Assembly: GCA_964016885.1 (NCBI GenBank)
Contig: OZ024742.1
Location: 31,868,001-31,932,000, forward strand
Reading direction: 5' to 3'
Length of the DNA: 64,000 bases
DNA from: Eledone cirrhosa
Lineage: Eukaryota
The stretch's first letter is position 1; each line of letters opens with the position of its first letter. The position numbers and the translations under genes were made by a program. The notes under the pieces are model-generated. The model did not search any database. It was given only the letters and a program-made list of their open reading frames with translations, and had not been told where the DNA came from. Shown here one piece after another: positions 14,092-64,000 of this stretch.

Positions 14092-14119
14092 ATGGCTCCT
14101 AAAATGAAGTTTGTTGAAG
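14092..14119 (+). CDS. MORF4L1: MRG15/MORF4L1-like exon 1
   Basis: Reads MAPKMKFVE(G) with a phase-1 GTAAAT donor; matches MRG15 MAPK...KFQEG. Confidence 0.85.
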
Positions 14120-17285: not shown

Positions 17286-17332
17286 GAGAGCGTGTGTTGT
17301 GTTTCCATGGACCATTATTGTATGAAGCCAAA
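17286..17332 (+). CDS. MORF4L1: MRG15/MORF4L1-like exon 2 (chromodomain)
   Basis: CAG/GTAAGT boundaries. (G)ERVLCFHGPLLYEAK matches the MRG15 chromodomain. Confidence 0.95.
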
Positions 17333-22803: not shown

Positions 22804-23110
22804 GTTAAAGAAGAGAGCAAACGGAAGAAAGGAGCACTTGCATAAACAGGCTCCTGAAGTTGAGGGTTGTTCTATCGACGGGGTATTAAACAACCCATTT
22901 GTGATGCTTCCCCCTATTGGGGATTTCGATTGTTGTAATTGTTTGTTTTATATTTTTTACACGACTGTATGTAAAATCCCCGGCATGTCTTTGTATTGTC
23001 CCCTTTTCTTGTGCACCCTTGTAGCAAATAAAGAAATATATCTATCTATCTCTCCTCTCTCTCTTTAACTTACTACAGTTTATTTAATCTCTCTCCTCTC
23101 TCTCTTTCAG

Positions 23111-23178
23111 TGTGTCAAATATGATGTTAAAGAGAAACTCATCCGATATTTCATTCATTACAATGGATGGAATAAGAA
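23111..23178 (+). CDS. MORF4L1: MRG15/MORF4L1-like exon 3
   Basis: TTTCAG/GTGAGT boundaries. Reads CVKYDVKEKLIRYFIHYNGWNK. Confidence 0.95.
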
Positions 23179-23295: not shown

Positions 23296-23382
23296 TTGGG
23301 ATGAATGGGTCCCAGAGTGTCGAGTCCTGAAGTTTAATGATGCTGGTTTACAGAAGCAGAGAGAACTGCAAAAAGCACATGC
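23296..23382 (+). CDS. MORF4L1: MRG15/MORF4L1-like exon 4
   Basis: TAG/GTGAGT boundaries. Reads WDEWVPECRVLKFNDAGLQKQRELQKAH. Confidence 0.95.
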
Positions 23383-24807: not shown

Positions 24808-24893
24808 GGGTTCTCGTAAAACTAAAGCTGTCAAGAAAGTAGAGAAGGACAAATCCACACTGCCAGCAGAGAAGTCATCAAAGCCAAAAGCAA
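24808..24893 (+). CDS. MORF4L1: MRG15/MORF4L1-like exon 5 (Lys-rich linker); remainder of the gene lies beyond the window
   Basis: TTTGCAG acceptor and GTAGGT donor, phase-2 compatible with exon 4. Reads GSRKTKAVKKVEKDKSTLPAEKSSKPKA. Confidence 0.75.
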
Positions 24894-24964
24894 GTAGGTT
24901 ACATAATGTTGTTGTAGTTGTTGTCATAGTTGTAGTTGGTTTGGTGGTGCAGTATGGATCTGTG

Positions 24965-25070
24965 CTGTTGCAGTGTAGGACAGGCTGTGTGGTGGAGTGG
25001 TGTAGGACAGGATGAGTGGTGTGGAACAGGCTGTGTGGTGGATGGTGTGGGACAGGCTATGTGGTGGTGT
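24965..25070 (+). repeat. Degenerate ~25-bp GT-rich tandem repeat
   Basis: Repeated GGACAGGCTGTGTGGTGG-like units. Confidence 0.7.
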
Positions 25071-25138
25071 ATTTATCAAAGCATGTTGTGTTGAGGTACA
25101 GTGTTACAATTTCCACTGTGACGTTATCCTAGATTCAT

Positions 25139-28100
25139 TTCACGGTTACTTAACTGTTCCAACCTAATGTCTGTGGTCTGTGGACTGTAGTCTCTGGTAA
25201 CTCAATGTCTTCACTGTTACTTAACTGTTCCAACCTAATGTCTGTGGTCTGTGGACTGTAGTCTCTGGTAACTCAATGTCTTCACTGTTACTTAACTGTT
25301 CCAACCTAATATCTGTGGTCTGTGGACTGTAGTCTCTGGTAACTCAATGTCTTCACTGTTACTTAACTGTTCCAACCTAATATCTGTGGTCTGTGGACTG
25401 TAGTCTCTGGTAACTCAATGTCTTCACTGTTACTTAACTGTTCCAACCTAATGTCTGTGGTATGTGGACTGTAGTCTCTGGTAACTCAATGTCTTCACTG
25501 TTACTTAACTGTTCCAACCTAATATCTGTGGTATGTGGACTGTAGTCTCTGGTAACTCAATGTCTTCACTGTTACTTAACTGTTCCAACCTAATATCTGT
25601 GGTATGTGGACTGTAGTCTCTGGTAACTCAATGTCTTCACTGTTACTTAACTGTTCCAACCTAATATCTGTGGTATGTGGACTGTGGTCTCTGGTAACTC
25701 AATGTCTTCACTATTACTTAACTGTTCCAACCTAATATCTGTGGTATGTGGACTGTGGTCTCTGGTAACTCAATGTCTTCACTGTTACTTAACTGTTCCA
25801 ACCTAATGTGTGTGGTCTGTGGACTGTGGTCTCTGGTAACTCAATGTCTTCACTGTTACTTAACTGTTCCAACCTAATGTCTGTGGTCTGTGGACTGTAG
25901 TCTCTGGTAAATCAATGTCTTCACTGTTACTTAACTGTTCCAACCTAATGTGTGTGGTCTGTGGACTGTGGTCTCTGGTAACTCAATGTCTTCACTGTTA
26001 CTTAACTGTTCCAACCTAATGTGTGTGGTCTGTGGACTGTGGTCTCTGGTAACTCAATGTCTTCACTGTTACTTAACTGTTCCAACCTAATATCTGTGGT
26101 ATGTGGACTGTGGTCTCTGGTAACTCAATGTCTTCACTGTTACTTAACTGTTCCAACCTAATATCTGTGGTATGTGGACTGTAGTCTCTGGTAACTCAAT
26201 GTCTTCACTGTTACTTAACTGTTCCAACCTAATGTCTGTGGTCTGTGGACTGTAGTCTCTGGTAACTCAATGTCTTCACTGTTACTTAACTGTTCCAACC
26301 TAATATCTGTGGTCTGTGGACTGTAGTCTCTGGTAACTCAATGTCTTCACTATTACTTAACTGTTCCAACCTAATATCTGTGGTCTGTGGACTGTAGTCT
26401 CTGGTAACTCAATGTCTTCACTGTTACTTAACTGTTCCAACCTAATATCTGTGGTCTGTGGACTGTAGTCTCTGGTAACTCAATGTCTTCACTATTACTT
26501 AACTGTTCCAACCTAATATCTGTGGTCTGTGGACTGTAGTCTCTGGTAACTCAATGTCTTCACTGTTACTTAACTGTTCCAACCTAATATCTGTGGTATG
26601 TGGACTGTAGTCTCTGGTAACTCAATGTCTTCACTGTTACTTAACTGTTCCAACCTAATGTCTGTGGTCTGTGGACTGTAGTCTCTGGTAACTCAATGTC
26701 TTCACTGTTACTTAACTGTTCCAACCTAATATCTGTGGTCTGTGGACTGTAGTCTCTGGTAACTCAATGTCTTCACTATTACTTAACTGTTCCAACCTAA
26801 TATCTGTGGTCTGTGGACTGTAGTCTCTGGTAACTCAATGTCTTCACTGTTACTTAACTGTTCCAACCTAATATCTGTGGTCTGTGGACTGTAGTCTCTG
26901 GTAACTCAATGTCTTCACTATTACTTAACTGTTCCAACCTAATATCTGTGGTCTGTGGACTGTAGTCTCTGGTAACTCAATGTCTTCACTGTTACTTAAC
27001 TGTTCCAACCTAATATCTGTGGTCTGTGGACTGTAGTCTCTGGTAACTCAATGTCTTCACTATTACTTAACTGTTCCAACCTAATATCTGTGGTCTGTGG
27101 ACTGTAGTCTCTGGTAACTCAATGTCTTCACTGTTACTTAACTGTTCCAACCTAATATCTGTGGTATGTGGACTGTAGTCTCTGGTAACTCAATGTCTTC
27201 ACTGTTACTTAACTGTTCCAACCTAATATCTGTGGTATGTGGACTGTAGTCTCTGGTAACTCAATGTCTTCACTGTTACTTAACTGTTCCAACCTAATAT
27301 CTGTGGTCTGTGGACTGTAGTCTCTGGTAACTCAATGTCTTCACTGTTACTTAACTGTTCCAACCTAATGTCTGTGGTCTGTGGACTGTAGTCTCTGGTA
27401 ACTCAATGTCTTCACTGTTACTTAACTGTTCCAACCTAATATCTGTGGTCTGTGGACTGTAGTCTCTGGTAACTCAATGTCTTCACTGTTACTTAACTGT
27501 TCCAACCTAATGTCTGTGGTCTGTGGACTGTAGTCTCTGGTAACTCAATGTCTTCACTGTTACTTAACTGTTCCAACCTAATATCTGTGGTCTGTGGACT
27601 GTAGTCTCTGGTAACTCAATGTCTTCACTGTTACTTAACTGTTCCTACCTAATATCTGTGGTATGTGGACTGTGGTCTCTGGTAACTCAATGTCTTCACT
27701 GTTACTTAACTGTTCCAACCTAATATCTGTGGTATGTGGACTGTAGTCTTTGGTAACTCAATGTCTTCACTGTTACTTAACTGTTCCAACCTAATATCTG
27801 TGGTCTGTGGACTGTAGTCTTTGGTAACTCAATGTCTTCACTGTTACTTAACTGTTCCAACCTAATATCTGTGGTCTGTGGACTGTAGTCTTTGGTAACT
27901 CAATGTCTTCACTGTTACTTAACTGTTCCTACCTAATATCTGTGGTATGTGGACTGTGGTCTCTGGTAACTCAATGTCTTCACTGTTACTTAACTGTTCC
28001 AACCTAATATCTGTGGTCTGTGGACTGTAGTCTCTGGTAACTCAATGTCTTCACTGTTACTTAACTGTTCCTACCTAATATCTGTGGTATGTGGACTGTG

Positions 28101-31100
28101 GTCTCTGGTAACTCAATGTCTTCACTGTTACTTAACTGTTCCAACCTAATAGCTGTGGTATGTGGACTGTAGTCTTTGGTAACTCAATGTCTTCACTGTT
28201 ACTTAACTGTTCCAACCTAATATCTGTGGTCTGTGGACTGTAGTCTTTGGTAACTCAATGTCTTCACTGTTACTTAACTGTTCCAACCTAATATCTGTGG
28301 TCTGTGGACTGTAGTCTTTGGTAACTCAATGTCTTCACTGTTACTTAACTGTTCCTACCTAATATCTGTGGTATGTGGACTGTGGTCTCTGGTAACTCAA
28401 TGTCTTCACTGTTACTTAACTGTTCCAACCTAATATCTGTGGTCTGTGGACTGTAGTCTCTGGTAACTCAATGTCTTCACTGTTACTTAACTGTTCCAAC
28501 CTAATGTCTGTGGTCTGTGGACTGTAGTCTCTGGTAACTCAATGTCTTCACTGTTACTTAACTGTTCCAACCTAATATCTGTGGTCTGTGGACTGTAGTC
28601 TCTGGTAACTCAATGTCTTCACTGTTACTTAACTGTTCCTACCTAATATCTGTAATCTGTGGACTGTAGTCTCTGGTAACTCAATGTCTTCACTGTTACT
28701 TAACTGTTCCAACCTAATGTCTGTGGTATGTGGACTGTAGTCTTTGGTAACTCAATGTCTTCACTGTTCCAACCTAATATCTGTGGTCTGTGGACTGTAG
28801 TCTCTGGTAACTCAATGTCTTCACTGTTACTTAACTGTTCCAACCTAATATCTGTGGTCTGTGGACTGTAGTCTCTGGTAACTCAATGTCTTCACTGTTA
28901 CTTAACTGTTCCAACCTAATATCTGTGGTATGTGGACTGTGGTCTCTGGTAACTCAATGTCTTCACTGTTACTTAACTATTCCAACCTAATATCTGTTGT
29001 CTGTGGACTGTAGTCTCTGGTAACTCAATGTCTTCACTGTTACTTAACTGTTCCTACCTAATATCTGTAATCTGTGGACTGTAGTCTCTGGTAACTCAAT
29101 GTCTTCACTGTTACTTAACTGTTCCAACCTAATGTCTGTGGTATGTGGACTGTAGTCTCTGGTAACTCAATGTCTTCACTGTTCCAACCTAATATCTGTG
29201 GTCTGTGGACTGTAGTCTCTGGTAACTCAATGTCTTCACTGTTACTTAACTGTTCCAACCTAATATCTGTGGTCTGTGGACTGTAGTCTCTGGTAACTCA
29301 ATGTCTTCACTGTTACTTAACTGTTCCAACCTAATGTCTGTGGTCTGTGGACTGTAGTCTCTGGTTACTCAATGTCTTCACTGTTACTTAACTGTTCCAA
29401 CCTAATATCTGTGGTATGTAGACTGTGGTCTCTGGTAACTCAATGTCTTCACTGTTACTTAACTGTTCCAACCTAATATCTGTGGTCTGTGGACTGTAGT
29501 CTTTGGTAACACAATGTCTTCACTGTTACTTAACTGTTCCTACCTAATATCTGTAATCTGTGGACTGTAGTCTCTGGTAACTCAATGTCTTCACTGTTAC
29601 TTAACTGTTCCAACCTAATGTCTGTGGTATGTGGACTGTAGTCTCTGGTAACTCAATGTCTTCACTGTTCCAACCTAATATCTGTGGTCTGTGGACTGTA
29701 GTCTCTGGTAACTCAATGTCTTCACTGTTACTTAACTGTTCCAACCTAATATCTGTGGTATGTGGACTGTGGTCTCTGGTAACTCAATGTCTTCACTGTT
29801 ACTTAACTGTTCCAACCTAATGTGTGTGGTCTGTGGACTGTGGTCTCTGGTAACTCAATGTCTTCACTGTTACTTAACTGTTCCAACCTAATGTGTGTGG
29901 TCTGTGGACTGTGGTCTCTGGTAACTCAATGTCTTCACTGTTACTTAACTGTTCCAACCTAATATCTGTGGTATGTGGACTGTAGTCTCTGGTAACTCAA
30001 TGTCTTCACTGTTACTTAACTGTTCCAACCTAATGTCTGTGGTCTGTGGACTGTAGTCTCTGGTAACTCAATGTCTTCACTGTTACTTAACTGTTCCAAC
30101 CTAATGTCTGTGGTCTGTGGACTGTAGTCTCTGGTAACTCAATGTCTTCACTGTTACTTAACTGTTCCAACCTAATGTCTGTGGTCTGTGGACTGTAGTC
30201 TCTGGTAACTCAATGTCTTCACTGTTACTTAACTGTTCCTACCTAATATCTGTGGTATGTGGACTGTAGTCTCTGGTAACTCAATGTCTTCACTGTTACT
30301 TAACTGTTCCAACCTAATGTCTGTGGTCTGTGGACTGTAGTCTCTGGTAACTCAATGTCTTCACTGTTACTTAACTGTTCCAACCTAATGTCTGTGGTCT
30401 GTGGACTGTAGTCTCTGGTAACTCAATGTCTTCACTGTTACTTAACTGTTCCAACCTAATGTCTGTGGTCTGTGGACTGTAGTCTCTGGTAACTCAATGT
30501 CTTCACTGTTACTTAACTGTTCCAACCTAATATCTGTGGTATGTGGACTGTGGTCTCTGGTAACTCAATGTCTTCACTGTTACTTAACTGTTCCAACCTA
30601 ATATCTGTGGTCTGTGGACTGTAGTCTCTGGTAACTCAATGTCTTCACTGTTACTTAACTGTTCCAACCTAATGTCTGTGGTCTGTGGACTGTAGTCTCT
30701 GGTAACTCAATGTCTTCACTGTTACTTAACTGTTCCAACCTAATGTCTGTGGTCTGTGGACTGTAGTCTCTGGTAACTCAATGTCTTCACTGTTACTTAA
30801 CTGTTCCAACCTAATATCTGTGGTATGTGGACTGTGGTCTCTGGTAACTCAATGTCTTCACTGTTACTTAACTGTTCCAACCTAATATCTGTGGTCTGTG
30901 GACTGTAGTCTCTGGTAACTCAATGTCTTCACTGTTACTTAACTGTTCCAACCTAATGTCTGTGGTCTGTGGACTGTAGTCTCTGGTAACTCAATGTCTT
31001 CACTGTTACTTAACTGTTCCAACCTAATGTCTGTGGTCTATGGACTGTAGTCTCTGGTAACTCAATGTCTTCACTGTTACTTAACTGTTCCAACCTAATA

Positions 31101-34100
31101 TCTGTGGTATGTGGACTATAGTCTCTGGTAACTCAATGTCTTCACTGTTACTTAACTGTTCCAACCTAATATCTGTGGTATGTGGACTGTAGTCTCTGGT
31201 AACTCAATGTCTTCACTGTTACTTAACTGTTCCAACCTAATATCTGTGGTCTGTGGACTGTAGTCTCTGGTAACTCAATGTCTTCACTGTTACTTAACTG
31301 TTCCAACCTAATATCTGTGGTATGTGGACTGTAGTCTCTGGTAACTCAATGTCTTCACTGTTACTTAACTGTTCCAACCTAATATCTGTGGTATGTGGAC
31401 TGTGGTCTCTGGTAACTCAATGTCTTCACTGTTACTTAACTGTTCCAACCTAATGTGTGTGGTCTGTGGACTGTGGTCTCTGGTAACTCAATGTCTTCAC
31501 TGTTACTTAACTGTTCCAACCTAATATCTGTGGTCTGTGGACTGTAGTCTCTGGTAACTAAATGTCTTCACTGTTACTTAACTGTTCCAACCTAATGTCT
31601 GTGGTCTGTGGACTGTAGTCTCTGGTAACTCAATGTCTTCACTGTTACTTAACTGTTCCAACCTAATATCTGTGGTCTGTGGACTGTAGTCTCTGGTAAC
31701 TCAATGTCTTCACTGTTACTTAACTGTTCCTACCTAATATCTGTGGTATGTGGACTGTGGTCTCTGGTAACTCAATGTCTTCACTGTTACTTAACTGTTC
31801 CAACCTAATATCTGTGGTATGTGGACTGTAGTCTTTGGTAACTCAATGTCTTCACTGTTACTTAACTGTTCCAACCTAATATCTGTGGTCTGTGGACTGT
31901 AGTCTCTGGTAACTCAATGTCTTCACTGTTACTTAACTGTTCCTACCTAATATCTGTGGTATGCGGACTGTGGTCTCTGGTAACTCAATGTCTTCACTGT
32001 TACTTAACTGTTCCAACCTAATATCTGTGGTCTGTGGACTGTAGTCTCTGGTAACTCAATGTCTTCACTGTTAGTTAACTGTTCCAACCTAATGTCTGTG
32101 GTCTGTGGACTGTAGTCTCTGGTAACTCAATGTCTTCACTGTTACTTAACTGTTCCAACCTAATATCTGTGGTCTGTGGACTGTAGTCTCTGGTAACTCA
32201 ATGTCTTCACTGTTACTTAACTGTTCCAACCTAATGTCTGTGGTCTGTGGACTGTAGTCTCTGGTAACTCAATGTCTTCACTGTTACTTAACTGTTCCAA
32301 CCTAATATCTGTGGTCTGTGGACTGTAGTCTCTGGTAACTCAATGTCTTCACTGTTACTTAACTGTTCCAACCTAATATCTGTGGTATGTGGACTGTGGT
32401 CTCTGGTAACTCAATGTCTTCACTGTTACTTAACTATTCCAACCTAATATCTGTTGTCTGTGGACTGTAGTCTCTGGTAACTCAATGTCTTCACTGTTAC
32501 TTAACTGTTCCAACCTAATATCTGTGGTCTGTGGACTGTAGTCTCTGGTAACTCAATGTCTTCACTGTTACTTAACTGTTCCAACCTAATATCTGTGGTC
32601 TGTGGACTGTAGTCTCTGGTAACTCAATGTCTTCACTGTTACTTAACTGTTCCAACCTAATATCTGTGGTCTGTGGACTGTAGTCTTTGGTAACACAATG
32701 TCTTCACTGTTACTTAACTGTTCCTACCTAATATCTGTAATCTGTGGACTGTAGTCTCTGGTAACTCAATGTCTTCACTGTTACTTAACTGTTCCAACCT
32801 AATGTCTGTGGTATGTGGACTGTAGTCTCTGGTAACTCAATGTCTTCACTGTTCCAACCTAATATCTGTGGTCTGTGGACTGTAGTCTCTGGTAACTCAA
32901 TGTCTTCACTGTTACTTAACTGTTCCAACCTAATATCTGTGGTCTGTGGACTGTAGTCTCTGGTAACTCAATGTCTTCACTGTTACTTAACTGTTCCAAC
33001 CTAATATCTGTGGTCTGTGGACTGTAGTCTCTGGTAACTCAATGTCTTCACTGTTACTTAACTGTTCCAACCTAATGTCTGTGGTATGTGGACTGTAGTC
33101 TCTGGTAACTCAATGTCTTCACTGTTCCAACCTAATATCTGTGGTCTGTGGACTGTAGTCTCTGGTAACTCAATGTCTTCACTGTTACTTAACTGTTCCA
33201 ACCTAATATCTGTGGTCTGTGGACTGTAGTCTCTGGTAACTCAATGTCTTCACTGTTACTTAACTGTTCCAACCTAATGTCTGTGGTCTGTGGACTGTAG
33301 TCTCTGGTTACTCAATGTCTTCACTGTTACTTAACTGTTCCAACCTAATATCTGTGGTATGTAGACTGTGGTCTCTGGTAACTCAATGTCTTCACTGTTA
33401 CTTAACTGTTCCAACCTAATATCTGTGGTCTGTGGACTGTAGTCTTTGGTAACACAATGTCTTCACTGTTACTTAACTGTTCCTACCTAATATCTGTAAT
33501 CTGTGGACTGTAGTCTCTGGTAACTCAATGTCTTCACTGTTACTTAACTGTTCCAACCTAATGTCTGTGGTATGTGGACTGTAGTCTCTGGTAACTCAAT
33601 GTCTTCACTGTTCCAACCTAATATCTGTGGTCTGTGGACTGTAGTCTCTGGTAACTCAATGTCTTCACTGTTACTTAACTGTTCCAACCTAATGTCTGTG
33701 GTCTGTGGACTGTGGTCTCTGGTAACTCAATGTCTTCACTGTTACTTAACTGTTCCAACCTAATATCTGTGGTCTGTGGACTGTAGTCTCTGGTAACTCA
33801 ATGTCTTCACTGTTACTTAACTGTTCCTACCTAATATCTGTGGTATGTGGACTGTGGTCTCTGGTAAGTCAATGTCTTCACTGTTACTTAACTGTTCCAA
33901 CCTAATATCTGCGGTCTGTGGACTGTAGTGTCTGGTAACTCAATGTCTTCACTGTTACTTAACTGTTCCAACCTAATGTCTGTGGTCTGTGGACTGTAGT
34001 CTCTGGTAACTCAATGTCTTCACTGTTACTTAACTGTTCCTACCTAATATCTGTGGTATGTGGACTGTGGTCTCTGGTAAGTCAATGTCTTCACTGTTAC

Positions 34101-37100
34101 TTAACTGTTCCAACCTAATATCTGCGGTCTGTGGACTGTAGTGTCTGGTAACTCAATGTCTTCACTGTTACTTAACTGTTCCAACCTAATGTCTGTGGTC
34201 TGTGGACTGTAGTCTCTGGTAACTCAATGTCTTCACTCTTACTTAACTGTTCCAACCTAATATCTGTGGTCTGTTGACTGTAGTCTCTGGTAACTCAATG
34301 TCTTCACTGTTACTTAACTGTTCCTACCTAATATCTGTAATCTGTGGACTGTAGTCTCTGGTAACTCAATGTCTTCACTGTTACTTAACTGTTCCAACCT
34401 AATGTCTGTGGTATGTGGACTGTAGTCTCTGGTAACTCAATGTCTTCACTGTTCCAACCTAATATCTGTGGTCTGTGGACTGTAGTCTCTGGTAACTCAA
34501 TGTCTTCACTGTTACTTAACTGTTCCAACCTAATATCTGTGGTCTGTGGACTGTAGTCTCTGGTAACTCAATGTCTTCACTGTTACTTAACTGTTCCAAC
34601 CTAATATCTGTGGTATGTGGACTGTGGTCTCTGGTAACTCAATGTCTTCACTGTTACTTAACTGTTCCAACCTAATATCTGTGGTCTGTGGACTGTAGTC
34701 TCTGGTAACTCAATGTCTTCACTGTTACTTAACTGTTCCTACCTAATATCTGTAATCTGTGGACTGTAGTCTCTGGTAACTCAATGTCTTCACTGTTACT
34801 TAACTGTTCCAACCTAATGTCTGTGGTATGTGGACTGTAGTCTCTGGTAACTCAATGTATTCACTGTTCCAACCTAATATCTGTGGTCTGTGGACTGTAG
34901 TCTCTGGTAACTCAATGTCTTCACTGTTACTTAACTGTTCCAACCTAATATCTGTGGTCTGTGGACTGTAGTCTCTGGTAACTCAATGTCTTCACTGTTA
35001 CTTAACTGTTCCAACCTAATATCTGTGGTATGTGGACTGTGGTCTCTGGTAACTCAATGTCTTCACTGTTACTTAACTGTTCCAACCTAATATCTGCGGT
35101 CTGTGGACTGTAGTGTCTGGTAACTCAATGTCTTCACTGTTACTTAACTGTTCCAACCTAATGTCTGTGGTCTGTGGACTGTAGTCTCTGGTAACTCAAT
35201 GTCTTCACTGTTACTTAACTGTTCCAACCTAATATCTGTGGTATGTGGACTATAGTCTCTGGTAACTCAATGTCTTCACTGTTACTTAACTGTTCCAACC
35301 TAATATCTGTGGTATGTGGACTGTAGTCTCTGGTAACTCAATGTCTTCACTGTTACTTAACTGTTCCAACCTAATATCTGTGGTCTGTGGACTGTAGTCT
35401 CTGGTAACTCAATGTCTTCACTGTTACTTAACTGTTCCAACCTAATATCTGTGGTATGTGGACTGTAGTCTCTGGTAACTCAATGTCTTCACTGTTACTT
35501 AACTGTTCCAACCTAATATCTGTGGTATGTGGACTGTGGTCTCTGGTAACTCAATGTCTTCACTGTTACTTAACTGTTCCAACCTAATGTGTGTGGTCTG
35601 TGGACTGTGGTCTCTGGTAACTCAATGTCTTCACTGTTACTTAACTGTTCCAACCTAATATCTGTGGTCTGTGGACTGTAGTCTCTGGTAACTAAATGTC
35701 TTCACTGTTACTTAACTGTTCCAACCTAATGTCTGTGGTCTGTGGACTGTAGTCTCTGGTAACTCAATGTCTTCACTGTTACTTAACTGTTCCAACCTAA
35801 TATCTGTGGTCTGTGGACTGTAGTCTCTGGTAACTCAATGTCTTCACTGTTACTTAACTGTTCCTACCTAATATCTGTGGTATGTGGACTGTGGTCTCTG
35901 GTAACTCAATGTCTTCACTGTTACTTAACTGTTCCAACCTAATATCTGTGGTATGTGGACTGTAGTCTTTGGTAACTCAATGTCTTCACTGTTACTTAAC
36001 TGTTCCAACCTAATATCTGTGGTCTGTGGACTGTAGTCTCTGGTAACTCAATGTCTTCACTGTTACTTAACTGTTCCTACCTAATATCTGTGGTATGTGG
36101 ACTGTGGTCTCTGGTAACTCAATGTCTTCACTGTTACTTAACTGTTCCAACCTAATATCTGTGGTCTGTGGACTGTAGTCTCTGGTAACTCAATGTCTTC
36201 ACTGTTAGTTAACTGTTCCAACCTAATGTCTGTGGTCTGTGGACTGTAGTCTCTGGTAACTCAATGTCTTCACTGTTACTTAACTGTTCCAACCTAATAT
36301 CTGTGGTCTGTGGACTGTAGTCTCTGGTAACTCAATGTCTTCACTGTTACTTAACTGTTCCAACCTAATGTCTGTGGTCTGTGGACTGTAGTCTCTGGTA
36401 ACTCAATGTCTTCACTGTTACTTAACTGTTCCAACCTAATATCTGTGGTCTGTGGACTGTAGTCTCTGGTAACTCAATGTCTTCACTGTTACTTAACTGT
36501 TCCAACCTAATATCTGTGGTATGTGGACTGTGGTCTCTGGTAACTCAATGTCTTCACTGTTACTTAACTATTCCAACCTAATATCTGTTGTCTGTGGACT
36601 GTAGTCTCTGGTAACTCAATGTCTTCACTGTTACTTAACTGTTCCAACCTAATATCTGTGGTCTGTGGACTGTAGTCTCTGGTAACTCAATGTCTTCACT
36701 GTTACTTAACTGTTCCAACCTAATATCTGTGGTCTGTGGACTGTAGTCTCTGGTAACTCAATGTCTTCACTGTTACTTAACTGTTCCAACCTAATATCTG
36801 TGGTCTGTGGACTGTAGTCTCTGGTAACTCAATGTCTTCACTGTTACTTAACTGTTCCAACCTAATATCTGTGGTATGTGGACTGTGGTCTCTGGTAACT
36901 CAATGTCTTCACTGTTACTTAACTATTCCAACCTAATATCTGTTGTCTGTGGACTGTAGTCTCTGGTAACTCAATGTCTTCACTGTTACTTAACTGTTCC
37001 TACCTAATATCTGTAATCTGTGGACTGTAGTCTCTGGTAACTCAATGTCTTCACTGTTACTTAACTGTTCCAACCTAATGTCTGTGGTATGTGGACTGTA

Positions 37101-52100: not shown

Positions 52101-55100
52101 TCACTGTTACTTAACTGTTCCAACCTAATATCTGTGGTCTGTGGACTGTAGTCTCTGGTAACTCAATGTCTTCACTGTTACTTAACTGTTCCAACCTAAT
52201 ATCTGTGGTATGTGGACTGTAGTCTCTGGTAACTCAATGTCTTCACTGTTACTTAACTGTTCCAACCTAATGTCTGTGGTCTGTGGACTGTAGTCTCTGG
52301 TAACTCAATGTCTTCACTGTTACTTAACTGTTCCAACCTAATATCTGTGGTCTGTGGACTGTAGTCTCTGGTAACTCAATGTCTTCACTCTTACTTAACT
52401 GTTCCAACCTAATATCTGTGGTCTGTGGACTGTAGTCTCTGGTAACTCAATGTCTTCACTGTTGCTTAACTGTTCCTACCTAATATCTGTAATCTGTGGA
52501 CTGTAGTCTCTTGTAACTCAATGTCTTCACTGTTACTTAACTGTTCCTACCTAATATCTGTAATCTGTGGACTGTAGTCTCTTGTAACTCAATGTCTTCA
52601 CTGTTACTTAACTGTTCCTACCTAATATCTGTAATCTGTGGACTGTAGTCTCTTGTAACTCAATGTCTTCACTGTTACTTAACTGTTCCAACCTAATGTC
52701 TGTGGTATGTGGACTGTAGTCTCTGGTAACTCAATGTCTTCACTGTTACTTAACTGTTCCAACCTAATATCTGTGGTATGTGGACTGTAGTCTCTTGTAA
52801 CTCAATGTCTTCACTGTTACTTAACTGTTCCAACCTAATATCTGTGGTCTGTGGACTGTAGTCTCTGGTAACTCAATGTCTTCACTGTTGCTTAACTGTT
52901 CCTACCTAATATCTGTAATCTGTGGACTGTAGTCTCTGGTAACTCAATGTCTTCACTGTTACTTAACTGTTCCTACCTAATATCTGTAATCTGTGGACTG
53001 TAGTCTCTTGTAACTCAATGTCTTCACTGTTACTTAACTGTTCCAACCTAATGTCTGTGGTATGTGGACTGTAGTCTCTGGTAACTCAATGTCTTCACTG
53101 TTACTTAACTGTTCCAACCTAATATCTGTGGTATGTGGACTGTAGTCTCTTGTAACTCAATGTCTTCACTGTTACTTAACTGTTCCAACCTAATATCTGT
53201 GGTCTGTGGACTGTAGTCTCTGGTAACTCAATGTCTTCACTGTTGCTTAACTGTTCCTACCTAATATCTGTAATCTGTGGACTGTAGTCTCTGGTAACTC
53301 AATGTCTTCACTGTTACTTAACTGTTCCTACCTAATATCTGTAATCTGTGGACTGTAGTCTCTTGTAACTCAATGTCTTCACTGTTACTTAACTGTTCCA
53401 ACCTAATGTCTGTGGTATGTGGACTGTAGTCTCTGGTAACTCAATGTCTTCACTGTTACTTAACTGTTCCAACCTAATATCTGTGGTCTGTGGACTGTAG
53501 TCTCTGGTAACTCAATGTCTTCACTGTTACTTAACTGTTCCAACCTAATATCTGTGGTCTGTTGACTGTAGTCTCTGGTAACTCAATGTCTTCACTGTTA
53601 CTTAACTGTTCCTACCTAATATCTGTAATCTGTGGACTGTAGTCTCTTGTAACTCAATGTCTTCACTGTTACTTAACTGTTCCAACCTAATGTCTGTGGT
53701 ATGTGGACTGTAGTCTCTGGTAACTCAATGTCTTCACTGTTCCAACCTAATATCTGTGGTCTGTGGACTGTAGTCTCTGGTAACTCAATGTCTTCACTGT
53801 TACTTAACTGTTCCAACCTAATATCTGTGGTCTGTGGACTGTAGTCTCTGGTAACTCAATGTCTTCACTGTTACTTAACTGTTCCAACCTAATATCTGTG
53901 GTATGTGGACTGTGGTCTCTGGTAACTCAATGTCTTCACTGTTACTTAACTGTTCCAACCTAATATCTGTGGTCTGTGGACTGTAGTCTCTGGTAACTCA
54001 ATGTCTTCACTGTTACTTAACTGTTCCTACCTAATATCTGTAATCTGTGGACTGTAGTCTCTGGTAACTCAATGTCTTCACTGTTACTTAACTGTTCCAA
54101 CCTAATGTCTGTGGTATGTGGACTGTAGTCTCTGGTAACTCAATGTCTTCACTGTTCCAACCTAATATCTGTGGTCTGTGGACTGTAGTCTCTGGTAACT
54201 CAATGTCTTCACTGTTACTTAACTGTTCCAACCTAATATCTGTGGTATGTGGACTGTAGTCTCTGGTAACTCAATGTCTTCACTGTTACTTAACTGTTCC
54301 TACCTAATATCTGTGGTATGTGGACTGTGGTCTCTGGTAACTCAATGTCTTCACTGTTACTTAACTGTTCCAACCTAATATCTGTGGTCTGTGGACTGTA
54401 GTCTCTGGTAACTCAATGTCTTCACTGTTACTTAACTGTTCCAACCTAATGTCTGTGGTCTGTGGACTGTAGTCTCTGGTAACTCAATGTCTTCACTGTT
54501 ACTTAACTGTTCCAACCTAATATCTGTGGTCTGTGGACTGTAGTCTCTGGTAACTCAATGTCTTCACTGTTACTTAACTGTTCCTACCTAATATCTGTAA
54601 TCTGTGGACTGTAGTCTCTGGTAACTCAATGTCTTCACTGTTACTTAACTGTTCCAACCTAATGTCTGTGGTATGTGGACTGTAGTCTCTGGTAACTCAA
54701 TGTCTTCACTGTTCCAACCTAATATCTGTGGTCTGTGGACTGTAGTCTCTGGTAACTCAATGTCTTCACTGTTACTTAACTGTTCCAACCTAATATCTGT
54801 GGTCTGTGGACTGTAGTCTCTGGTAACTCAATGTCTTCACTGTTACTTAACTGTTCCAACCTAATATCTGTGGTATGTGGACTGTGGTCTCTGGTAACTC
54901 AATGTCTTCACTGTTACTTAACTGTTCCAACCTAATATCTGTTGTCTGTGGACTGTAGTCTCTGGTAACTCAATGTCTTCACTGTTACTTAACTGTTCCT
55001 ACCTAATATCTGTAATCTGTGGACTGTAGTCTCTTGTAACTCAATGTCTTCACTGTTACTTAACTGTTCCAACCTAATGTCTGTGGTATGTGGACTGTAG

Positions 55101-58100
55101 TCTCTGGTAACTCAATGTCTTCACTGTTCCAACCTAATATCTGTGGTCTGTGGACTGTAGTCTCTGGTAACTCAATGTCTTCACTGTTACTTAACTGTTC
55201 CAACCTAATATCTGTGGTCTGTGGACTGTAGTCTCTGGTAACTCAATGTCTTCACTGTTACTTAACTGTTCCAACCTAATATCTGTGGTATGTGGACTGT
55301 GGTCTCTGGTAACTCAATGTCTTCACTGTTACTTAACTGTTCCAACCTAATATCTGTGGTCTGTGGACTGTAGTCTCTGGTAACTCAATGTCTTCACTGT
55401 TACTTAACTGTTCCTACCTAATATCTGTAATCTGTGGACTGTAGTCTCTGGTAACTCAATGTCTTCACTGTTACTTAACTGTTCCAACCTAATGTCTGTG
55501 GTATGTGGACTGTAGTCTCTGGTAACTCAATGTCTTCACTGTTCCAACCTAATATCTGTGGTCTGTGGACTGTAGTCTCTGGTAACTCAATGTCTTCACT
55601 GTTACTTAACTGTTCCAACCTAATATCTGTGGTATGTGGACTGTAGTCTCTGGTAACTCAATGTCTTCACTGTTACTTAACTGTTCCTACCTAATATCTG
55701 TGGTATGTGGACTGTGGTCTCTGGTAACTCAATGTCTTCACTGTTACTTAACTGTTCCAACCTAATATCTGTGGTCTGTGGACTGTAGTCTCTGGTAACT
55801 CAATGTCTTCACTGTTACTTAACTGTTCCAACCTAATGTCTGTGGTCTGTGGACTGTAGTCTCTGGTAACTCAATGTCTTCACTGTTACTTAACTGTTCC
55901 AACCTAATATCTGTGGTCTGTGGACTGTAGTCTCTGGTAACTCAATGTCTTCACTGTTACTTAACTGTTCCTACCTAATATCTGTAATCTGTGGACTGTA
56001 GTCTCTGGTAACTCAATGTCTTCACTGTTACTTAACTGTTCCAACCTAATGTCTGTGGTATGTGGACTGTAGTCTCTGGTAACTCAATGTCTTCACTGTT
56101 CCAACCTAATATCTGTGGTCTGTGGACTGTAGTCTCTGGTAACTCAATGTCTTCACTGTTACTTAACTGTTCCAACCTAATATCTGTGGTCTGTGGACTG
56201 TAGTCTCTGGTAACTCAATGTCTTCACTGTTACTTAACTGTTCCAACCTAATATCTGTGGTATGTGGACTGTGGTCTCTGGTAACTCAATGTCTTCACTG
56301 TTACTTAACTGTTCCAACCTAATATCTGTTGTCTGTGGACTGTAGTCTCTGGTAACTCAATGTCTTCACTGTTACTTAACTGTTCCTACCTAATATCTGT
56401 AATCTGTGGACTGTAGTCTCTGGTAACTCAATGTCTTCACTGTTACTTAACTGTTCCAACCTAATGTCTGTGGTATGTGGACTGTAGTCTCTGGTAACTC
56501 AATGTCTTCACTGTTCCAACCTAATATCTGTGGTCTGTGGACTGTAGTCTCTGGTAACTCAATGTCTTCACTGTTACTTAACTGTTCCAACCTAATATCT
56601 GTGGTCTGTGGACTGTAGTCTCTGGTAACTCAATGTCTTCACTGTTACTTAACTGTTCCAACCTAATGTCTGTGGTCTGTGGACTGTAGTCTCTGGTAAC
56701 TCAATGTCTTCACTGTTACTTAACTGTTCCAACCTAATATCTGTGGTATGTAGACTGTGGTCTCTGGTAACTCAATGTCTTCACTGTTACTTAACTGTTC
56801 CAACCTAATATCTGTGGTCTGTGGACTGTAGTCTCTGGTAACTCAATGTCTTCACTGTTATTTAACTGTTCCTACCTAATATCTGTAATCTGTGGACTGT
56901 AGTCTCTGGTAACTCAATGTCTTCACTGTTACTTAACTGTTCCAACCTAATGTCTGTGGTATGTGGACTGTAGTCTCTGGTAACTCAATGTCTTCACTGT
57001 TCCAACCTAATATCTGTGGTCTGTGGACTGTAGTCTCTGGTAACTCAATGTCTTCACTGTTACTTAACTGTTCCAACCTAATATCTGTGGTCTGTGGACT
57101 GTAGTCTCTGGTAACTCAATGTCTTCACTGTTACTTAACTGTTCCAACCTAATATCTGTGGTATGTGGACTGTGGTCTCTGGTAACTCAATGTCTTCACT
57201 GTTACTTAACTGTTCCAACCTAATATCTGTGGTCTGTGGACTGTAGTCTCTGGTAACTCAATGTCTTCACTGTTACTTAACTGTTCCTACCTAATATCTG
57301 TAATCTGTGGACTGTAGTCTCTGGTAACTCAATGTCTTCACTGTTACTTAACTGTTCCAACCTAATGTCTGTGGTATGTGGACTGTAGTCTCTGGTAACT
57401 CAATGTCTTCACTGTTCCAACCTAATATCTGTGGTCTGTGGACTGTAGTCTCTGGTAACTCAATGTCTTCACTGTTACTTAACTGTTCCAACCTAATATC
57501 TGTGGTCTGTGGACTGTAGTCTCTGGTAACTCAATGTCTTCACTGTTACTTAACTGTTCCAACCTAATATCTGTGGTATGTGGACTGTACTCTCTGGTAA
57601 CTCAATGTCTTCACTGTTACTTAACTGTTCCAACCTAATGTCTGTGGTATGTGGACTGTAGTCTCTGGTAACTCAATGTCTTCACTGTTACTTAACTGTT
57701 CCAACCTAATATCTGTGGTCTGTGGACTGTAGTCTCTGGTAACTCAATGTCTTCACTGTTACTTAACTGTTCCTACCTAATATCTGTGGTATGTGGACTG
57801 TGGTCTCTGGTAACTCAATGTCTTCACTGTTACTTAACTGTTCCAACCTAATATCTGCGGTCTGTGGACTGTAGTCTCTGGTAACTCAATGTCTTCACTG
57901 TTACTTAACTGTTCCTACCTAATATCTGTGGTATGTGGACTGTGGTCTCTGGTAACTCAATGTCTTCACTGTTACTTAACTGTTCCAACCTAATATCTGC
58001 GGTCTGTGGACTGTAGTGTCTGGTAACTCAATGTCTTCACTGTTACTTAACTGTTCCAACCTAATGTCTGTGGTCTGTGGACTGTAGTCTCTGGTAACTC

Positions 58101-61100
58101 AATGTCTTCACTCTTACTTAACTGTTCCAACCTAATATCTGTGGTCTGTTGACTGTAGTCTCTGGTAACTCAATGTCTTCACTGTTACTTAACTGTTCCT
58201 ACCTAATATCTGTAATCTGTGGACTGTAGTCTCTGGTAACTCAATGTCTTCACTGTTACTTAACTGTTCCAACCTAATGTCTGTGGTATGTGGACTGTAG
58301 TCTCTGGTAACTCAATGTCTTCACTGTTACTTAACTGTTCCAACCTAATATCTGTGGTATGTGGACTGTGGTCTCTGGTAACTCAATGTCTTCACTGTTA
58401 CTTAACTGTTCCAACCTAATATCTGTGGTCTGTGGACTGTAGTCTCTGGTAACTCAATGTCTTCACTGTTACTTAACTGTTACTACCTAATATCTGTAAT
58501 CTGTGGACTGTAGTCTCTGGTAACTCAATGTCTTCACTGTTACTTAACTGTTCCAACCTAATGTCTGTGGTATGTGGACTGTAGTCTCTGGTAACTCAAT
58601 GTCTTCACTGTTCCAACCTAATATCTGTGGTCTGTGGACTGTAGTCTCTGGTAACTCAATGTCTTCACTGTTACTTAACTGTTCCAACCTAATATCTGTG
58701 GTATGTGGACTGTAGTCTCTGGTAACTCAATGTCTTCACTGTTACTTAACTGTTCCTACCTAATATCTGTGGTATGTGGACTGTGGTCTCTGGTAACTCA
58801 ATGTCTTCACTGTTACTTAACTGTTCCAACCTAATATCTGTGGTCTGTGGACTGTAGTCTCTGGTAACTCAATGTCTTCACTGTTACTTAACTGTTCCAA
58901 CCTAATGTCTGTGGTCTGTGGACTGTAGTCTCTGGTAACTCAATGTCTTCACTGTTACTTAACTGTTCCTACCTAATATCTGTAATCTGTGGACTGTAGT
59001 CTCTGGTAACTCAATGTCTTCACTGTTACTTAACTGTTCCAACCTAATGTCTGTGGTATGTGGACTGTAGTCTCTGGTAACTCAATGTCTTCACTGTTCC
59101 AACCTAATATCTGTGGTCTGTGGACTGTAGTCTCTGGTAACTCAATGTCTTCACTGTTACTTAACTGTTCCAACCTAATATCTGTGGTCTGTGGACTGTA
59201 GTCTCTGGTAACTCAATGTCTTCACTGTTACTTAACTGTTCCAACCTAATATCTGTGGTATGTGGACTGTGGTCTCTGGTAACTCATTGTCTTCACTGTT
59301 ACTTAACTGTTCCAACCTAATATCTGTTGTCTGTGGACTGTAGTCTCTGGTAACTCAATGTCTTCACTGTTACTTAACTGTTCCTACCTAATATCTGTAA
59401 TCTGAGGACTGTAGTCTCTGGTAACTCAATGTCTTCACTGTTACTTAACTGTTCCAACCTAATGTCTGTGGTATGTGGACTGTAGTCTCTGGTAACTCAA
59501 TGTCTTCACTGTTCCAACCTAATATCTGTGGTCTGTGGACTGTAGTCTCTGGTAACTCAATGTCTTCACTGTTACTTAACTGTTCCAACCTAATATCTGT
59601 GGTCTGTGGACTGTAGTCTCTGGTAACTCAATGTCTTCACTGTTACTTAACTGTTCCAACCTAATGTCTGTGGTCTGTGGACTGTAGTCTCTGGTAACTC
59701 AATGTCTTCACTGTTACTTAACTGTTCCAACCTAATATCTGTGGTATGTAGACTGTGGTCTCTGGTAACTCAATGTCTTCACTGTTACTTAACTGTTCCA
59801 ACCTAATATCTGTGGTCTGTGGACTGTAGTCTCTGGTAACTCAATGTCTTCACTGTTATTTAACTGTTCCTACCTAATATCTGTAATCTGTGGACTGTAG
59901 TCTCTGGTAACTCAATGTCTTCACTGTTACTTAACTGTTCCAACCTAATGTCTGTGGTATGTGGACTGTAGTCTCTGGTAACTCAATGTCTTCACTGTTC
60001 CAACCTAATATCTGTGGTCTGTGGACTGTAGTCTCTGGTAACTCAATGTCTTCACTGTTACTTAACTGTTCCAACCTAATATCTGTGGTCTGTGGACTGT
60101 AGTCTCTGGTAACTCAATGTCTTCACTGTTACTTAACTGTTCCAACCTAATGTCTGTGGTATGTGGACTGTGGTCTCTGGTAACTCAATGTCTTCACTGT
60201 TACTTAACTGTTCCAACCTAATATCTGTGGTCTGTGGACTGTAGTCTCTGGTAACTCAATGTCTTCACTGTTACTTAACTGTTCCAACCTAATATCTGTG
60301 GTCTGTGGACTGTAGTCTCTGGTAACTCAATGTCTTCACTGTTACTTAACTGTTCCAACCTAATATCTGTGGTATGTGGACTGTACTCTCCGGTAACTCA
60401 ATGTCTTCACTGTTACTTAACTGTTCCAACCTAATGTCTGTGGTATGTGGACTGTAGTCTCTGGTAACTCAATGTCTTCACTGTTACTTAACTGTTCCAA
60501 CCTAATATCTGTGGTCTGTGGACTGTAGTCTCTGGTAACTCAATGTCTTCACTGTTACTTAACTGTTCCTACCTAATATCTGTGGTATGTGGACTGTGGT
60601 CTCTGGTAACTCAATGTCTTCACTGTTACTTAACTGTTCCAACCTAATATCTGCGGTCTGTGGACTGTAGTCTCTGGTAACTCAATGTCTTCACTGTTAC
60701 TTAACTGTTCCAACCTAATGTCTGTGGTCTGTGGACTGTAGTCTCTGGTAACTCAATGTCTTCACTGTTACTTAACTGTTCCAACCTAATATCTGTGGTC
60801 TGTGGACTGTAGTCTCTGGTAACTCAATGTCTTCACTGTTACTTAACTGTTCCTACCTAATATCTGTAATCTGTGGACTGTAGTCTCTGGTAACTCAATG
60901 TCTTCACTGTTACTTAACTGTTCCAACCTAATGTCTGTGGTATGTGGACTGTAGTCTCTGGTAACTCAATGTCTTCACTGTTCCAACCTAATATCTGTGG
61001 TCTGTGGACTGTAGTCTCTGGTAACTCAATGTCTTCACTGTTACTTAACTGTTCCAACCTAATATCTGTGGTCTGTGTACTGTAGTCTCTGGTAACTCAA

Positions 61101-64000
61101 TGTCTTCACTGTTACTTAACTGTTCCTACCTAATATCTGTAATCTGTGGACTGTAGTCTCTGGTAACTCAATGTCTTCACTGTTACTTAACTGTTCCAAC
61201 CTAATGTCTGTGGTATGTGGACTGTAGTCTCTGGTAACTCAATGTCTTCACTGTTCCAACCTAATATCTGTGGTCTGTGGACTGTAGTCTCTGGTAACTC
61301 AATGTCTTCACTGTTACTTAACTGTTCCAACCTAATATCTGTGGTCTGTGGACTGTAGTCTCTGGTAACTCAATGTCTTCACTGTTGCTTAACTGTTCCA
61401 ACCTAATGTCTGTGGTATGTGGACTGTAGTCTCTGGTAACTCAATGTCTTCACTGTTACTTAACTGTTCCAACCTAATATCTGTGGTCTGTGGACTGTAG
61501 TCTCTGGTAACTCAATGTCTTCACTGTTACTTAACTGTTCCAACCTAATATCTGTGGTATGTGGACTGTGGTGTCTGGTAACTCAATGTCTTCACTGTTA
61601 CTTAACTGTTCCAACCTAATATCTGTGGTCTCTGGACTGTAGTCTCTGGTAACTCAATGTCTTCACTGTTACTTAACTGTTCCTACCTAATATCTGTAAT
61701 CTGTGGACTGTAGTCTCTGGTAACTCAATGTCTTCACTGTTACTTAACTGTTCCAACCTAATGTCTGTGGTATGTGGACTGTAGTCTCTGGTAACTCAAT
61801 GTCTTCACTGTTCCAACCTAATATCTGTGGTCTGTGGACTGTAGTCTCTGGTAACTCAATGTCTTCACTGTTACTTAACTGTTCCAACCTAATATCTGTG
61901 GTCTGTGAACTGTAGTCTCTGGTAACTCAATGTCTTCACTGTTACTTAACTGTTCCAACCTAATATCTGTGGTATGAGGACTGTGGTCTCTGGTAACTCA
62001 ATGTCTTCACTGTTACTTAACTGTTCCAACCTAATATCTGTGGTCTGTGGACTGTAGTCTCTGGTAACTCAATGTCTTCACTGTTACTTAACTGTTCCAA
62101 CCTAATATCTGTGGTATGTGGACTGTGGTGTCTGGTAACTCAATGTCTTCACTGTTACTTAACTGTTCCAACCTAATATCTGTGGTCTCTGGACTGTAGT
62201 CTCTGGTAACTCAATGTCTTCACTGTTACTTAACTGTTCCTACCTAATATCTGTAATCTGTGGACTGTAGTCTCTGGTAACTCAATGTCTTCACTGTTAC
62301 TTAACTGTTCCAACCTAATGTCTGTGGTATGTGGACTGTAGTCTCTGGTAACTCAATGTCTTCACTGTTACTTAACTGTTCCAACCTAATGTCTGTGGTA
62401 TGTGGACTGTAGTCTCTGGTAACTCAATGTCTTCACTGTTCCAACCTAATATCTGTGGTCTGTGGACTGTAGTCTCTGGTAACTCAATGTCTTCACTGTT
62501 ACTTAACTGTTCCAACCTAATATCTGTGGTCTGTGGACTGTAGTCTCTGGTAACTCAATGTCTTCACTGTTATTTAACTGTTGCTACCTAATATCTGTAA
62601 TCTGTGGACTGTAGTCTCTGGTAACTCAATGTCTTCACTGTTACTTAACTGTTCCAACCTAATGTCTGTGGTATGTGGACTGTAGTCTCTGGTAACTCAA
62701 TGTCTTCACTGTTCCAACCTAATATCTGTGGTCTGTGGACTGTAGTCTCTGGTAACTCAATGTCTTCACTGTTACTTAACTGTTCAAACCTAATGTCTGT
62801 GGTATGTGGACTGTAGTCTCTGGTAACTCAATGTCTTCACTGTTCCAACCTAATATCTGTGGTCTGTGGACTGTAGTCTCTGGTAACTCAATGTCTTCAC
62901 TGTTACTTAACTGTTCCAACCTAATATCTGTGGTCTGTGGACTGTAGTCTGGTAACTCAATGTCTTCACTGTTACTTAACTGTTCCAACCTAATGTCTGT
63001 GGTCTGTGGACTGTAGTCTCTGGTAACTCAATGTCTTCACTGTTACTTAACTGTTCCAACCTAATATCTGTGGTATGTGGACTGTGGTCTCTGGTAACTC
63101 AATGTCTTCACTGTTACTTAACTGTTCCAACCTAATATCTGTGGTCTGTGGACTGTAGTCTCTGGTAACTCAATGTCTTCACTGTTACTTAACTGTTCCT
63201 ACCTAATATCTGTAATCTGTGGACTGTAGTCTCTGGTAACTCAATGTCTTCACTGTTACTTAACTGTTCCAACCTAATGTCTGTGGTATGTGGACTGTAG
63301 GCTCTGGTAACTCAATGTCTTCACTGTTCCAACCTAATATCTGTGGTCTGTGGACTGTAGTCTCTGGTAACTCAATGTCTTCACTGTTACTTAACTGTTC
63401 CAACCTAATATCTGTGGTCTGTGGACTGTAGTCTCTGGTAACTCAATGTCTTCACTGTTACTTAACTGTTCCAACCTAATATCTGTGGTATGTGGACTGT
63501 GGTCTCTGGTAACTCAATGTCTTCACTGTTACTTAACTGTTCCAACCTAATGTCTGTGGTATGTGGACTGTAGTCTCTGGTAACTCAATGTCTTCACTGT
63601 TCCAACCTAATATCTGTGGTCTGTGGACTGTAGTCTCTGGTAACTCAATGTCTTCACTGTTACTTAACTGTTCCAACCTAATATCTGTGATCTGTGGACT
63701 GTAGTCTCTGGTAACTCAATGTCTTCACTGTTACTTAACTGTTCCAACCTAATATCTGTGGTCTGTGGACTGTAGTCTCTGGTAACTCAATGTCTTCACT
63801 GTTACTTAACCGTTCCAACCTAATATCTGTGGTATGTGGACTGTGGTCTCTGGTAACTCAATGTCTTCACTGTTACTTAACTGTTCCAACCTAATATCTG
63901 TGGTCTGTGGACTGTAGTCTCTGGTAACTCAATGTCTTCACTGTTACTTAACTGTTCCAACCTAATATCTGTGGTCTGTGGACTGTAGTCTCTGGTAACT
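25139..64000 (+). repeat. 71-bp tandem satellite array (~550 monomers, with a 60-bp deletion variant), open-ended
   Basis: Monomer CTGTTACTTAACTGTTCCAACCTAATATCTGTGGTCTGTGGACTGTAGTCTCTGGTAACTCAATGTCTTCA repeated head-to-tail without interruption. Confidence 0.99.

What the first reader, a model, noticed from the sequence alone, without database searches (positions are those of the whole stretch)
24894..64000. A >38 kb pure satellite array inside an intron of the chromatin reader MRG15
Seen: the array starts ~245 bp after the exon 5 donor and continues uninterrupted to the window end. No stop codon or MRG-domain exons have appeared, so an intact gene must transcribe through the array. MRG15 is normally a broadly expressed H3K36me reader in NuA4/Sin3 complexes. 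A satellite-filled giant intron recalls Drosophila Y-loop genes but is unexpected in a housekeeping gene, and it separates the chromodomain from the MRG domain. High homogeneity and the absence of TE insertions, in contrast to the TE-dense flank, imply recent expansion.
Basis: partly seen in the sequence, partly recalled or inferred. Interest (0 to 1): 0.75.

Follow-up and report, generated by a model that had tools for sequence, protein, structure and literature searches.

The report
Repeat-swollen intron in octopod MRG15
An intact octopod gene for the chromatin protein MRG15 has one 124,000-base intron that is 99.7% copies of a 71-base unit found nowhere else in the assembly, but arrays this long are common in this genome and there is a second, compact MRG15 gene, so it is likely tolerated local repeat overgrowth rather than a special device.

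Summary
Confirmed and larger than seen. The 71-bp array runs 123.7 kb (about 1,776 units, no gaps, no insertions, one orientation) and fills 99.7% of intron 5 of an intact 13-exon MRG15 gene (405 aa, 92% identical to Octopus vulgaris). All 1,530 genome-wide matches of a unit 25-mer lie in this array. A spliced contig from run X4 holds exon 5 exactly and goes on 950 nt outside the intron; that length fits the downstream exons, but its letters were not shown. Internal 3-7 kb blocks differ by at most 0.06%, which points to recent block duplication. The surprise shrinks in context. Five of 79 sampled 10-kb stretches lie wholly inside other giant arrays, each with its own unit; two reach about 438 and at least 449 kb. 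The LHPP gene has a 122-kb intron built the same way. A second complete-looking MRG15 gene spans about 53 kb without such an array. The scan has noted the same architecture at seven other genes of this genome. Best reading: near-neutral, locus-private intron overgrowth, like chicken 'sequence stuttering' but far larger. A Y-loop-type or centromeric role has no support here.

The parts
13983..14119 (+). MRG15 5' leader (start inferred) and exon 1 (ATG at 14,092)
   Evidence: Leader start is inferred from the X4 contig: 339 nt before exon 5 = 230 coding + 109; depth bins agree
17286..17332 (+). exon 2 (chromodomain)
23111..23178 (+). exon 3 (chromodomain)
23296..23382 (+). exon 4 (end of chromodomain)
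24808..24893 (+). exon 5 (linker); covered exactly, with 0 differences, by a spliced X4 contig
24894..25138 (+). 245-bp 5' flank of intron 5, partly degenerate TGTGG-rich 19/26-bp repeats
   Evidence: bridged into the first unit by DNA contigs of X1 and X3
25139..64000 (+). 71-bp tandem array, part inside the window. It continues to extended coordinate 148,875 (G000:C3:32,016,875), 123,737 bp in all, about 1,776 units. Exons 6, 6b and 7-12 (rest of linker, MRG domain, stop) follow outside the window at extended 148,948-158,390
18200..22900 (+). high-copy repeat block in intron 2; LINE-like by eye, bounds approximate, not scanned against a family library

Best explanation
A 71-bp unit private to this locus has grown to about 1,776 tandem copies inside intron 5 of an intact octopod MRG15 gene, likely by repeated duplication of multi-kilobase blocks, and is likely transcribed through and spliced out as tolerated filler with no job of its own. 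Shown: array size and purity, single locus in the assembly, intact GT-AG gene model, a spliced contig ending exactly at both exon 5 boundaries, nested near-identical blocks, and many similar arrays elsewhere in the genome. Inferred: the seed arose locally by slippage (the unit holds short internal repeats). Growth came by unequal exchange or replication-based block copying. Pol II reads through, helped by a sense strand with no AATAAA or ATTAAA. The cost (roughly 1-2 h more transcription at recalled rates of 1-2 kb/min) is small and may be buffered by the second MRG15 gene.
For: Locus-private: 1,530 forward and 0 reverse genome-wide matches equal the 1,530 in this array. Block growth: 12 best blocks of 2.9-7.0 kb recur 2.9-44 kb away at 0-0.064% divergence; longest exact run 65 units versus 5-6 in 20 shuffles. 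Intact gene: 405 aa, one stop at the end, 12 of 12 introns GT-AG, 92.1% identical to O. vulgaris P0003 and 84.6% to Argonauta P0002. Spliced contig: X4 record 23, 1,375 nt, exon 5 at 340-425, 950 nt beyond; exons 6-12 sum to 902 nt. Background: 3 of 60 random and 2 of 19 fixed 10-kb stretches lie wholly in arrays with 8-, 16-, 26-, 39- and 42-bp units; two were traced by probes to about 438 kb and at least 449 kb, one orientation each. LHPP: last intron about 122 kb with a 115-kb 28-bp array, final exon found beyond it. The same MRG15 gene has 0.9-kb minisatellites in two more introns and the 3' UTR, and a 63-kb 14-bp array lies 51 kb past this array. Array-free paralogue of about 53 kb.
Against: 0 of 21 other housekeeping gene spans (79 gaps, 228 kb) has a gap over 18 kb. 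This is weak, since only about 0.03-0.15 arrays are expected in that much DNA. The exon 5 to exon 6 junction letters were not displayed, so the join rests on length alone. The unit carries a donor-like site (7 of 9 match) plus a branch-point-like word and AG, together in 1.2% of 2,000 shuffles (criteria set after looking). Neutrality itself is untested: no population, expression or chromatin data.
Confidence: 0.75

Rival explanations
1. The array is a regulatory element: its length delays or lowers output of the long-linker MRG15 paralogue, or its per-unit donor-like and branch-point-like sites act as U1 decoys or stepwise splice sites.
For: GGTAA occurs 1,754 times on the sense strand and once on the antisense; no AATAAA or ATTAAA in 124 kb versus 24 in 18 kb of the gene's other, mostly intronic, sequence. 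The donor-like plus acceptor-like pair occurs in 1.2% of shuffles. Only the long-linker paralogue carries a giant array.
Against: Every count follows from one 71-bp unit, so n = 1, and the test was post hoc. There is no AG|GT ratchet on the sense strand (0 AGGT). Arrays of unrelated sequence occur genome-wide at similar or larger size.
Confidence: 0.1
2. The array length, or its placement between exons 5 and 6, is an assembly artefact.
For: Near-identical multi-kb blocks can mislead assemblers. No raw long reads were available. X1 and X3 may be the source sample. The 3' junction was not checked with reads.
Against: No N in the 264 kb read. The longest exact internal repeat is 4.5 kb, shorter than typical accurate long reads (recalled). 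DNA contigs of X1 and X3 bridge exon 5 to the first unit, one with and one without a 3-bp insertion in the flank. Unit depth is 15,000-31,000 versus 5-11 for unique contigs; this is order of magnitude only, as the tool warns it is no copy number. The exons fall in the right order on both sides.
Confidence: 0.08
3. Y-loop-like programme or centromeric/heterochromatic block: the array is a structural satellite whose transcription needs dedicated factors.
For: It shares the anatomy of a satellite-filled intron with kl-3 and kl-5 (PMC6508621 abstract); intron purity is 99.7%.
Against: The intron is 0.12 Mb, not megabases. The unit is complex and single-locus. The gene sits 32 Mb into a 379-Mb contig, and larger arrays with other units occur elsewhere.
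Confidence: 0.05

Closest known systems
'Sequence stuttering' in introns of chicken dot-chromosome genes (Hron et al. 2026, PMC12954441; abstract and part 1 of two Results sections read)
   Same: Locally born tandem expansions of units tens to hundreds of bases long, confined to one intron, coding exons left intact, several introns of one gene affected, described as recent.
   Different: Their example intron is 1.6-2.9 kb with imperfect tandems; this array is 124 kb and orderly (2.3% from consensus). Here arrays also occur on 379-Mb contigs, not only tiny chromosomes. The unit shows no exon origin (best match 12 bp). Length polymorphism was not tested.
Drosophila Y-loop genes kl-3, kl-5 (PMC6508621 abstract; PMC11207136 passages, which also name autosomal Pzl, Myo81F and Mitf with repeat-containing giant introns)
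   Same: An intron made almost wholly of tandem repeat inside an intact gene, which must be transcribed through.
   Different: About tenfold shorter, a complex private unit instead of simple satellite, a broadly conserved chromatin gene, and no evidence for a spermatocyte programme or dedicated RNA-binding proteins.
MRG15 / MORF4L1 (Pfam PF11717, PF22732, PF05712)
   Same: Chromodomain, linker and MRG domain; best hits are named mortality factor 4-like protein 1; 92% identical to O. vulgaris.
   Different: This copy has an 86-aa linker exon shared with the Octopus and Argonauta proteins and P0005, and largely lacking in the chiton and sea-star proteins aligned; a second paralogue exists on the same contig.
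Human intronic VNTRs and macrosatellites (recalled, no call)
   Same: Single-locus intronic tandem arrays.
   Different: Typically far shorter, and a far smaller share of the genome (recalled).

Membership tests
MRG15/MORF4L1 | N-terminal chromodomain and C-terminal MRG domain in one reading frame | tested here: met
   405-aa model, PF05712 hit at exon 9, 92% identity to P0003 which carries PF11717, PF22732 and PF05712
Chicken-type sequence stuttering | Repeat private to, and confined within, one intron; exons intact | tested here: met
   1,530 of 1,530 genome-wide matches lie in this intron; ORF intact
Chicken-type sequence stuttering | Several introns or genes of the region affected, each with its own unit | tested here: met
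   83-, 45- and 44-bp arrays in the same gene, 14-bp array nearby; LHPP with 37- and 28-bp arrays. Locus privacy was tested for the 71-bp unit only
Chicken-type sequence stuttering | Unit sometimes copied from the adjacent exon (optional) | tested here: not met
   best match of the unit to the rest of the locus is 12 bp, E 0.49
Chicken-type sequence stuttering | Intron length varies between individuals | not testable with these tools
   no long reads of other individuals among the 8 runs listed
Y-loop intron gigantism | Megabase introns | tested here: not met
   124,054 bp
Y-loop intron gigantism | Simple satellite makes up over 99% of the locus | tested here: not met
   71-bp complex unit; 86% of the 144-kb ATG-to-stop span, 99.7% of the intron
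Y-loop intron gigantism | Spermatocyte-specific, multi-day transcription with dedicated RNA-binding proteins | not testable with these tools
   no run on record as RNA with tissue labels
Centromeric satellite | CENP-A binding at the array | not testable with these tools
   no chromatin data
Centromeric satellite | Unit shared among chromosomes (common, not universal; recalled) | tested here: not met
   single locus in the assembly

The most novel reading that the evidence does not exclude
This octopod genome runs a genome-wide 'giant stuttering' process: hundreds to about two thousand locus-private units of 8-71 bp have each ballooned to 60-450 kb, many inside ordinary conserved genes (MRG15, LHPP) that stay intact and spliced. 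That would be intron gigantism with no Y-loop programme, at about a hundred times the scale of the chicken example, and the MRG15 paralogue pair would be a built-in test of its cost.
Probability: 0.55. Interest if true: 0.55.

Novelty: new member of a known kind. Interest (0 to 1): 0.3.

Why it matters
As a single locus it is one more case of a pattern common in this genome. Its value is as a test case. Two MRG15 genes on one chromosome, one with and one without a 124-kb repeat intron, allow a direct look at what pure-repeat intron gigantism costs in transcription time, splicing and chromatin state. Searches (listings only) and word searches in two cephalopod genome papers showed no description of such arrays in octopod introns. 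The library lacks most subscription papers, and no supplements were read.

Tried and rejected
No RNA holder was listed for window 23,050-25,138; X4 has no library on record and is treated as RNA only because its contig is spliced. The first read-laying over 11.5 kb was swamped by interspersed repeats. Run X5 (organism B) shows no cover of the unit or of exon 5 at 85% likeness; as a part without cover this is not used as evidence of species-specificity. X4 holds a 101-nt contig of the unit at depth 18.1, but contigs cannot separate nascent RNA from DNA carry-over. A candidate extra exon at about 24,593-24,680 was rejected: no frame fits and it is a high-copy repeat. No fixed higher-order period: best autocorrelation 0.16 versus 0.083 baseline. 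Exon origin of the unit: none. A gene around the neighbouring 14-bp array: 148 of 338 candidate ORFs scanned against Pfam, 4 hits, all below cut-off; the villin-headpiece hit looks spurious and no gelsolin exon lies nearby. The SRA1 lead could not be checked: one weak exon hit, E 0.19. Of 80 random positions drawn over 21 contigs (2.60 of 3.00 Gb), the first 60 were fetched. One of 20 fixed positions lay beyond its contig.
Full report
Coordinates. The window is G000:C3:31,868,001-31,932,000 of a 3.0-Gb assembly. 'Extended' coordinates continue window numbering into the 200 kb fetched. The nearest named proteins by identity are from Octopus vulgaris and Argonauta, so I call the animal an octopod.

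Observation. TRF gives a 71-bp array from 25,139 to the window end and on to 148,875 (1,776.6 copies, 92% matches, no N). Of 1,776 parsed units, 1,546 are 71 bp, 210 are a 60-bp deletion variant and 20 are 57-69 bp; none is longer, so nothing has inserted. Mean distance to consensus is 2.3% and pairwise 3.7%. The array is 123,737 bp of a 124,054-bp intron. It starts 245 bp after the exon 5 donor and ends 72 bp before the exon 6 acceptor.

The gene. Thirteen coding exons from 14,092 to 158,390 join through 12 GT-AG introns into 405 aa with a single terminal stop; exons 6-12 lie at extended 148,948-158,390. The protein is 92.1% identical to O. vulgaris P0003 (404 aa) and 84.6% to Argonauta P0002 (406 aa), including the 86-aa linker exon 6b. 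The other introns are 117-5,778 bp. In run X4 (library not on record) a 1,375-nt contig matches exon 5 exactly, acceptor to donor, at its positions 340-425. The 339 nt before fit exons 1-4 (230 nt) plus a 109-nt leader, and the depth bins (0.08 and 5.55) match that start. The 950 nt after fit exons 6-12 (902 nt) plus 48 nt up to the 3' UTR repeat. This is inference from lengths, because the letters were not shown. DNA contigs of X1 and X3 (one sample, possibly the source) run from exon 5 into the first unit, one with and one without a 3-bp flank insertion, which suggests the junction is on both haplotypes. Summed depth on the unit is 15,000-31,000 against 5-11 for unique contigs; the tool warns this is no copy number, so I take it only as thousands-fold.

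How it grew. A 25-mer of the unit has 1,530 forward and 0 reverse matches in the genome, and all 1,530 are in this array. There is no fixed higher-order period. Instead the 12 best blocks of 2.9-7.0 kb recur 2.9-44 kb away at 0-0.064% divergence, and exact runs reach 65 units against 5-6 in 20 shuffles. Rare variants are most common at the 3' end (24-32 per 111 units, versus 2-9 in the core). This pattern is what recent, nested block duplication would leave (inference). The longest exact repeat is 4.5 kb, so accurate long reads could in principle resolve it (read lengths recalled). The unit has no counterpart in the exons or flanks.

Is it unusual here? No. Three of 60 length-weighted random 10-kb stretches (5%, 95% CI 1-14%) and 2 of 19 fixed-position stretches lie wholly inside pure arrays, with five different units of 8-42 bp. 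Two were traced by pattern start and probes: about 438 kb on C4 and at least 449 kb on C8, each in one orientation; their interiors were only sampled and single-locus status is not proven. A 63-kb 14-bp array lies 51 kb beyond this one. Following an earlier scan note, I checked LHPP on C2. Four exons were found by TIGR01458, a 37-bp array of at least 25 kb lies between two of them, a 115-kb 28-bp array follows (both ends read, 4 of 4 interior probes), and the final exon lies beyond it. A rough estimate (5-6% of 3 Gb, mean length 100-450 kb) gives 300-1,900 arrays and a 0.2-1.4% chance for a gene with 20 kb of other sequence. Against this, 0 of 21 chaperonin, tRNA-synthetase and MCM gene spans has a gap over 18 kb, but only 0.03-0.15 arrays are expected in those 228 kb, so that test cannot show exclusion.

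A second MRG15. G000:C3:169.43-169.49 Mb (minus strand) holds another gene with chromodomain and MRG exons in the same layout, about 53 kb long. Eleven exons were located, with no stop in them; the exon 5 equivalent was not found, and no array over 3 kb occurs in 100 kb. A third PF05712 hit on C22 looks like MSL3 by recall. Redundancy may relax the cost, but expression of the paralogue is untested.

Mechanism. Most likely (0.75) a local seed expanded by block duplication, and the gene is transcribed through it and spliced normally. The sense strand lacks AATAAA and ATTAAA and has no AG|GT ratchet. Each unit has a 7-of-9 donor-like site and a branch-point-like word with AG; the pair occurs in 1.2% of shuffles, but the test was post hoc on one unit, so the regulatory rival gets 0.10. 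Misassembly gets 0.08 and a Y-loop or centromere role 0.05.

Known systems. It works most like chicken sequence stuttering (PMC12954441; abstract and part 1 of two Results sections): private intronic tandems with intact exons. It differs in being far longer than their 1.6-2.9 kb example and more orderly, and polymorphism is untested. It fails the Y-loop criteria of megabase size and simple satellite (PMC6508621, abstract). PMC11207136 (passages) already names autosomal fly genes with repeat-filled giant introns. Searches (listings only) and word searches in two cephalopod papers showed no report for octopods; no supplements were read.

Verdict. Real, intact and ordinary for this genome; the scan has logged the same build at seven other genes (unchecked except LHPP). 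Interest 0.3. The genome-wide process is the more interesting object.

Noticed in passing
G000:C3:169,434,700-169,487,442 (L155-L160), minus strand: Second complete-looking MRG15 gene with the same exon layout, about 53 kb, no giant array; exon 5 equivalent not located.
   Followed up: partly
extended 200,221-263,007 (L017-L023): 63-kb array of a 14-bp unit (about 4,485 copies, 88% matches), 42 kb past the MRG15 stop; no host gene found.
   Followed up: partly
extended 158,421-159,327 (L013): 44-bp tandem array (20.6 copies, 96%) starting 30 bp after the MRG15 stop codon, so likely in the 3' UTR.
   Followed up: no
extended 152,025-152,923 and 157,292-158,185: 83-bp (10.9 copies) and 45-bp (19.7 copies) minisatellites in two other MRG15 introns: small versions of the same process.
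   Followed up: no
extended 149,493-149,750 (L012:5493-5750): 86-aa linker exon shared with the Octopus and Argonauta proteins and P0005, largely lacking in the chiton and sea-star proteins aligned.
   Followed up: partly
G000:C4:174,518,201-174,956,086 and G000:C8:37,171,381 to at least 37,620,600: Arrays of about 438 kb (39-bp unit) and at least 449 kb (42-bp unit) hit by random sampling; host genes not sought.
   Followed up: partly
G000:C2 at or below 410,596,001 to 410,611,180 (L142, L143): A 48-bp array of at least 15 kb begins about 1 kb past the last LHPP exon.
   Followed up: no
window 10,327-11,880; also L119, L120, L142: A 48-bp repeat (32 copies here) with similar units at several other places: a dispersed tandem family, unlike the private 71-bp unit.
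   Followed up: no
G000:C22:20,222,615-20,222,725 (L003): Divergent MRG-domain exon, MSL3-like by recall.
   Followed up: no
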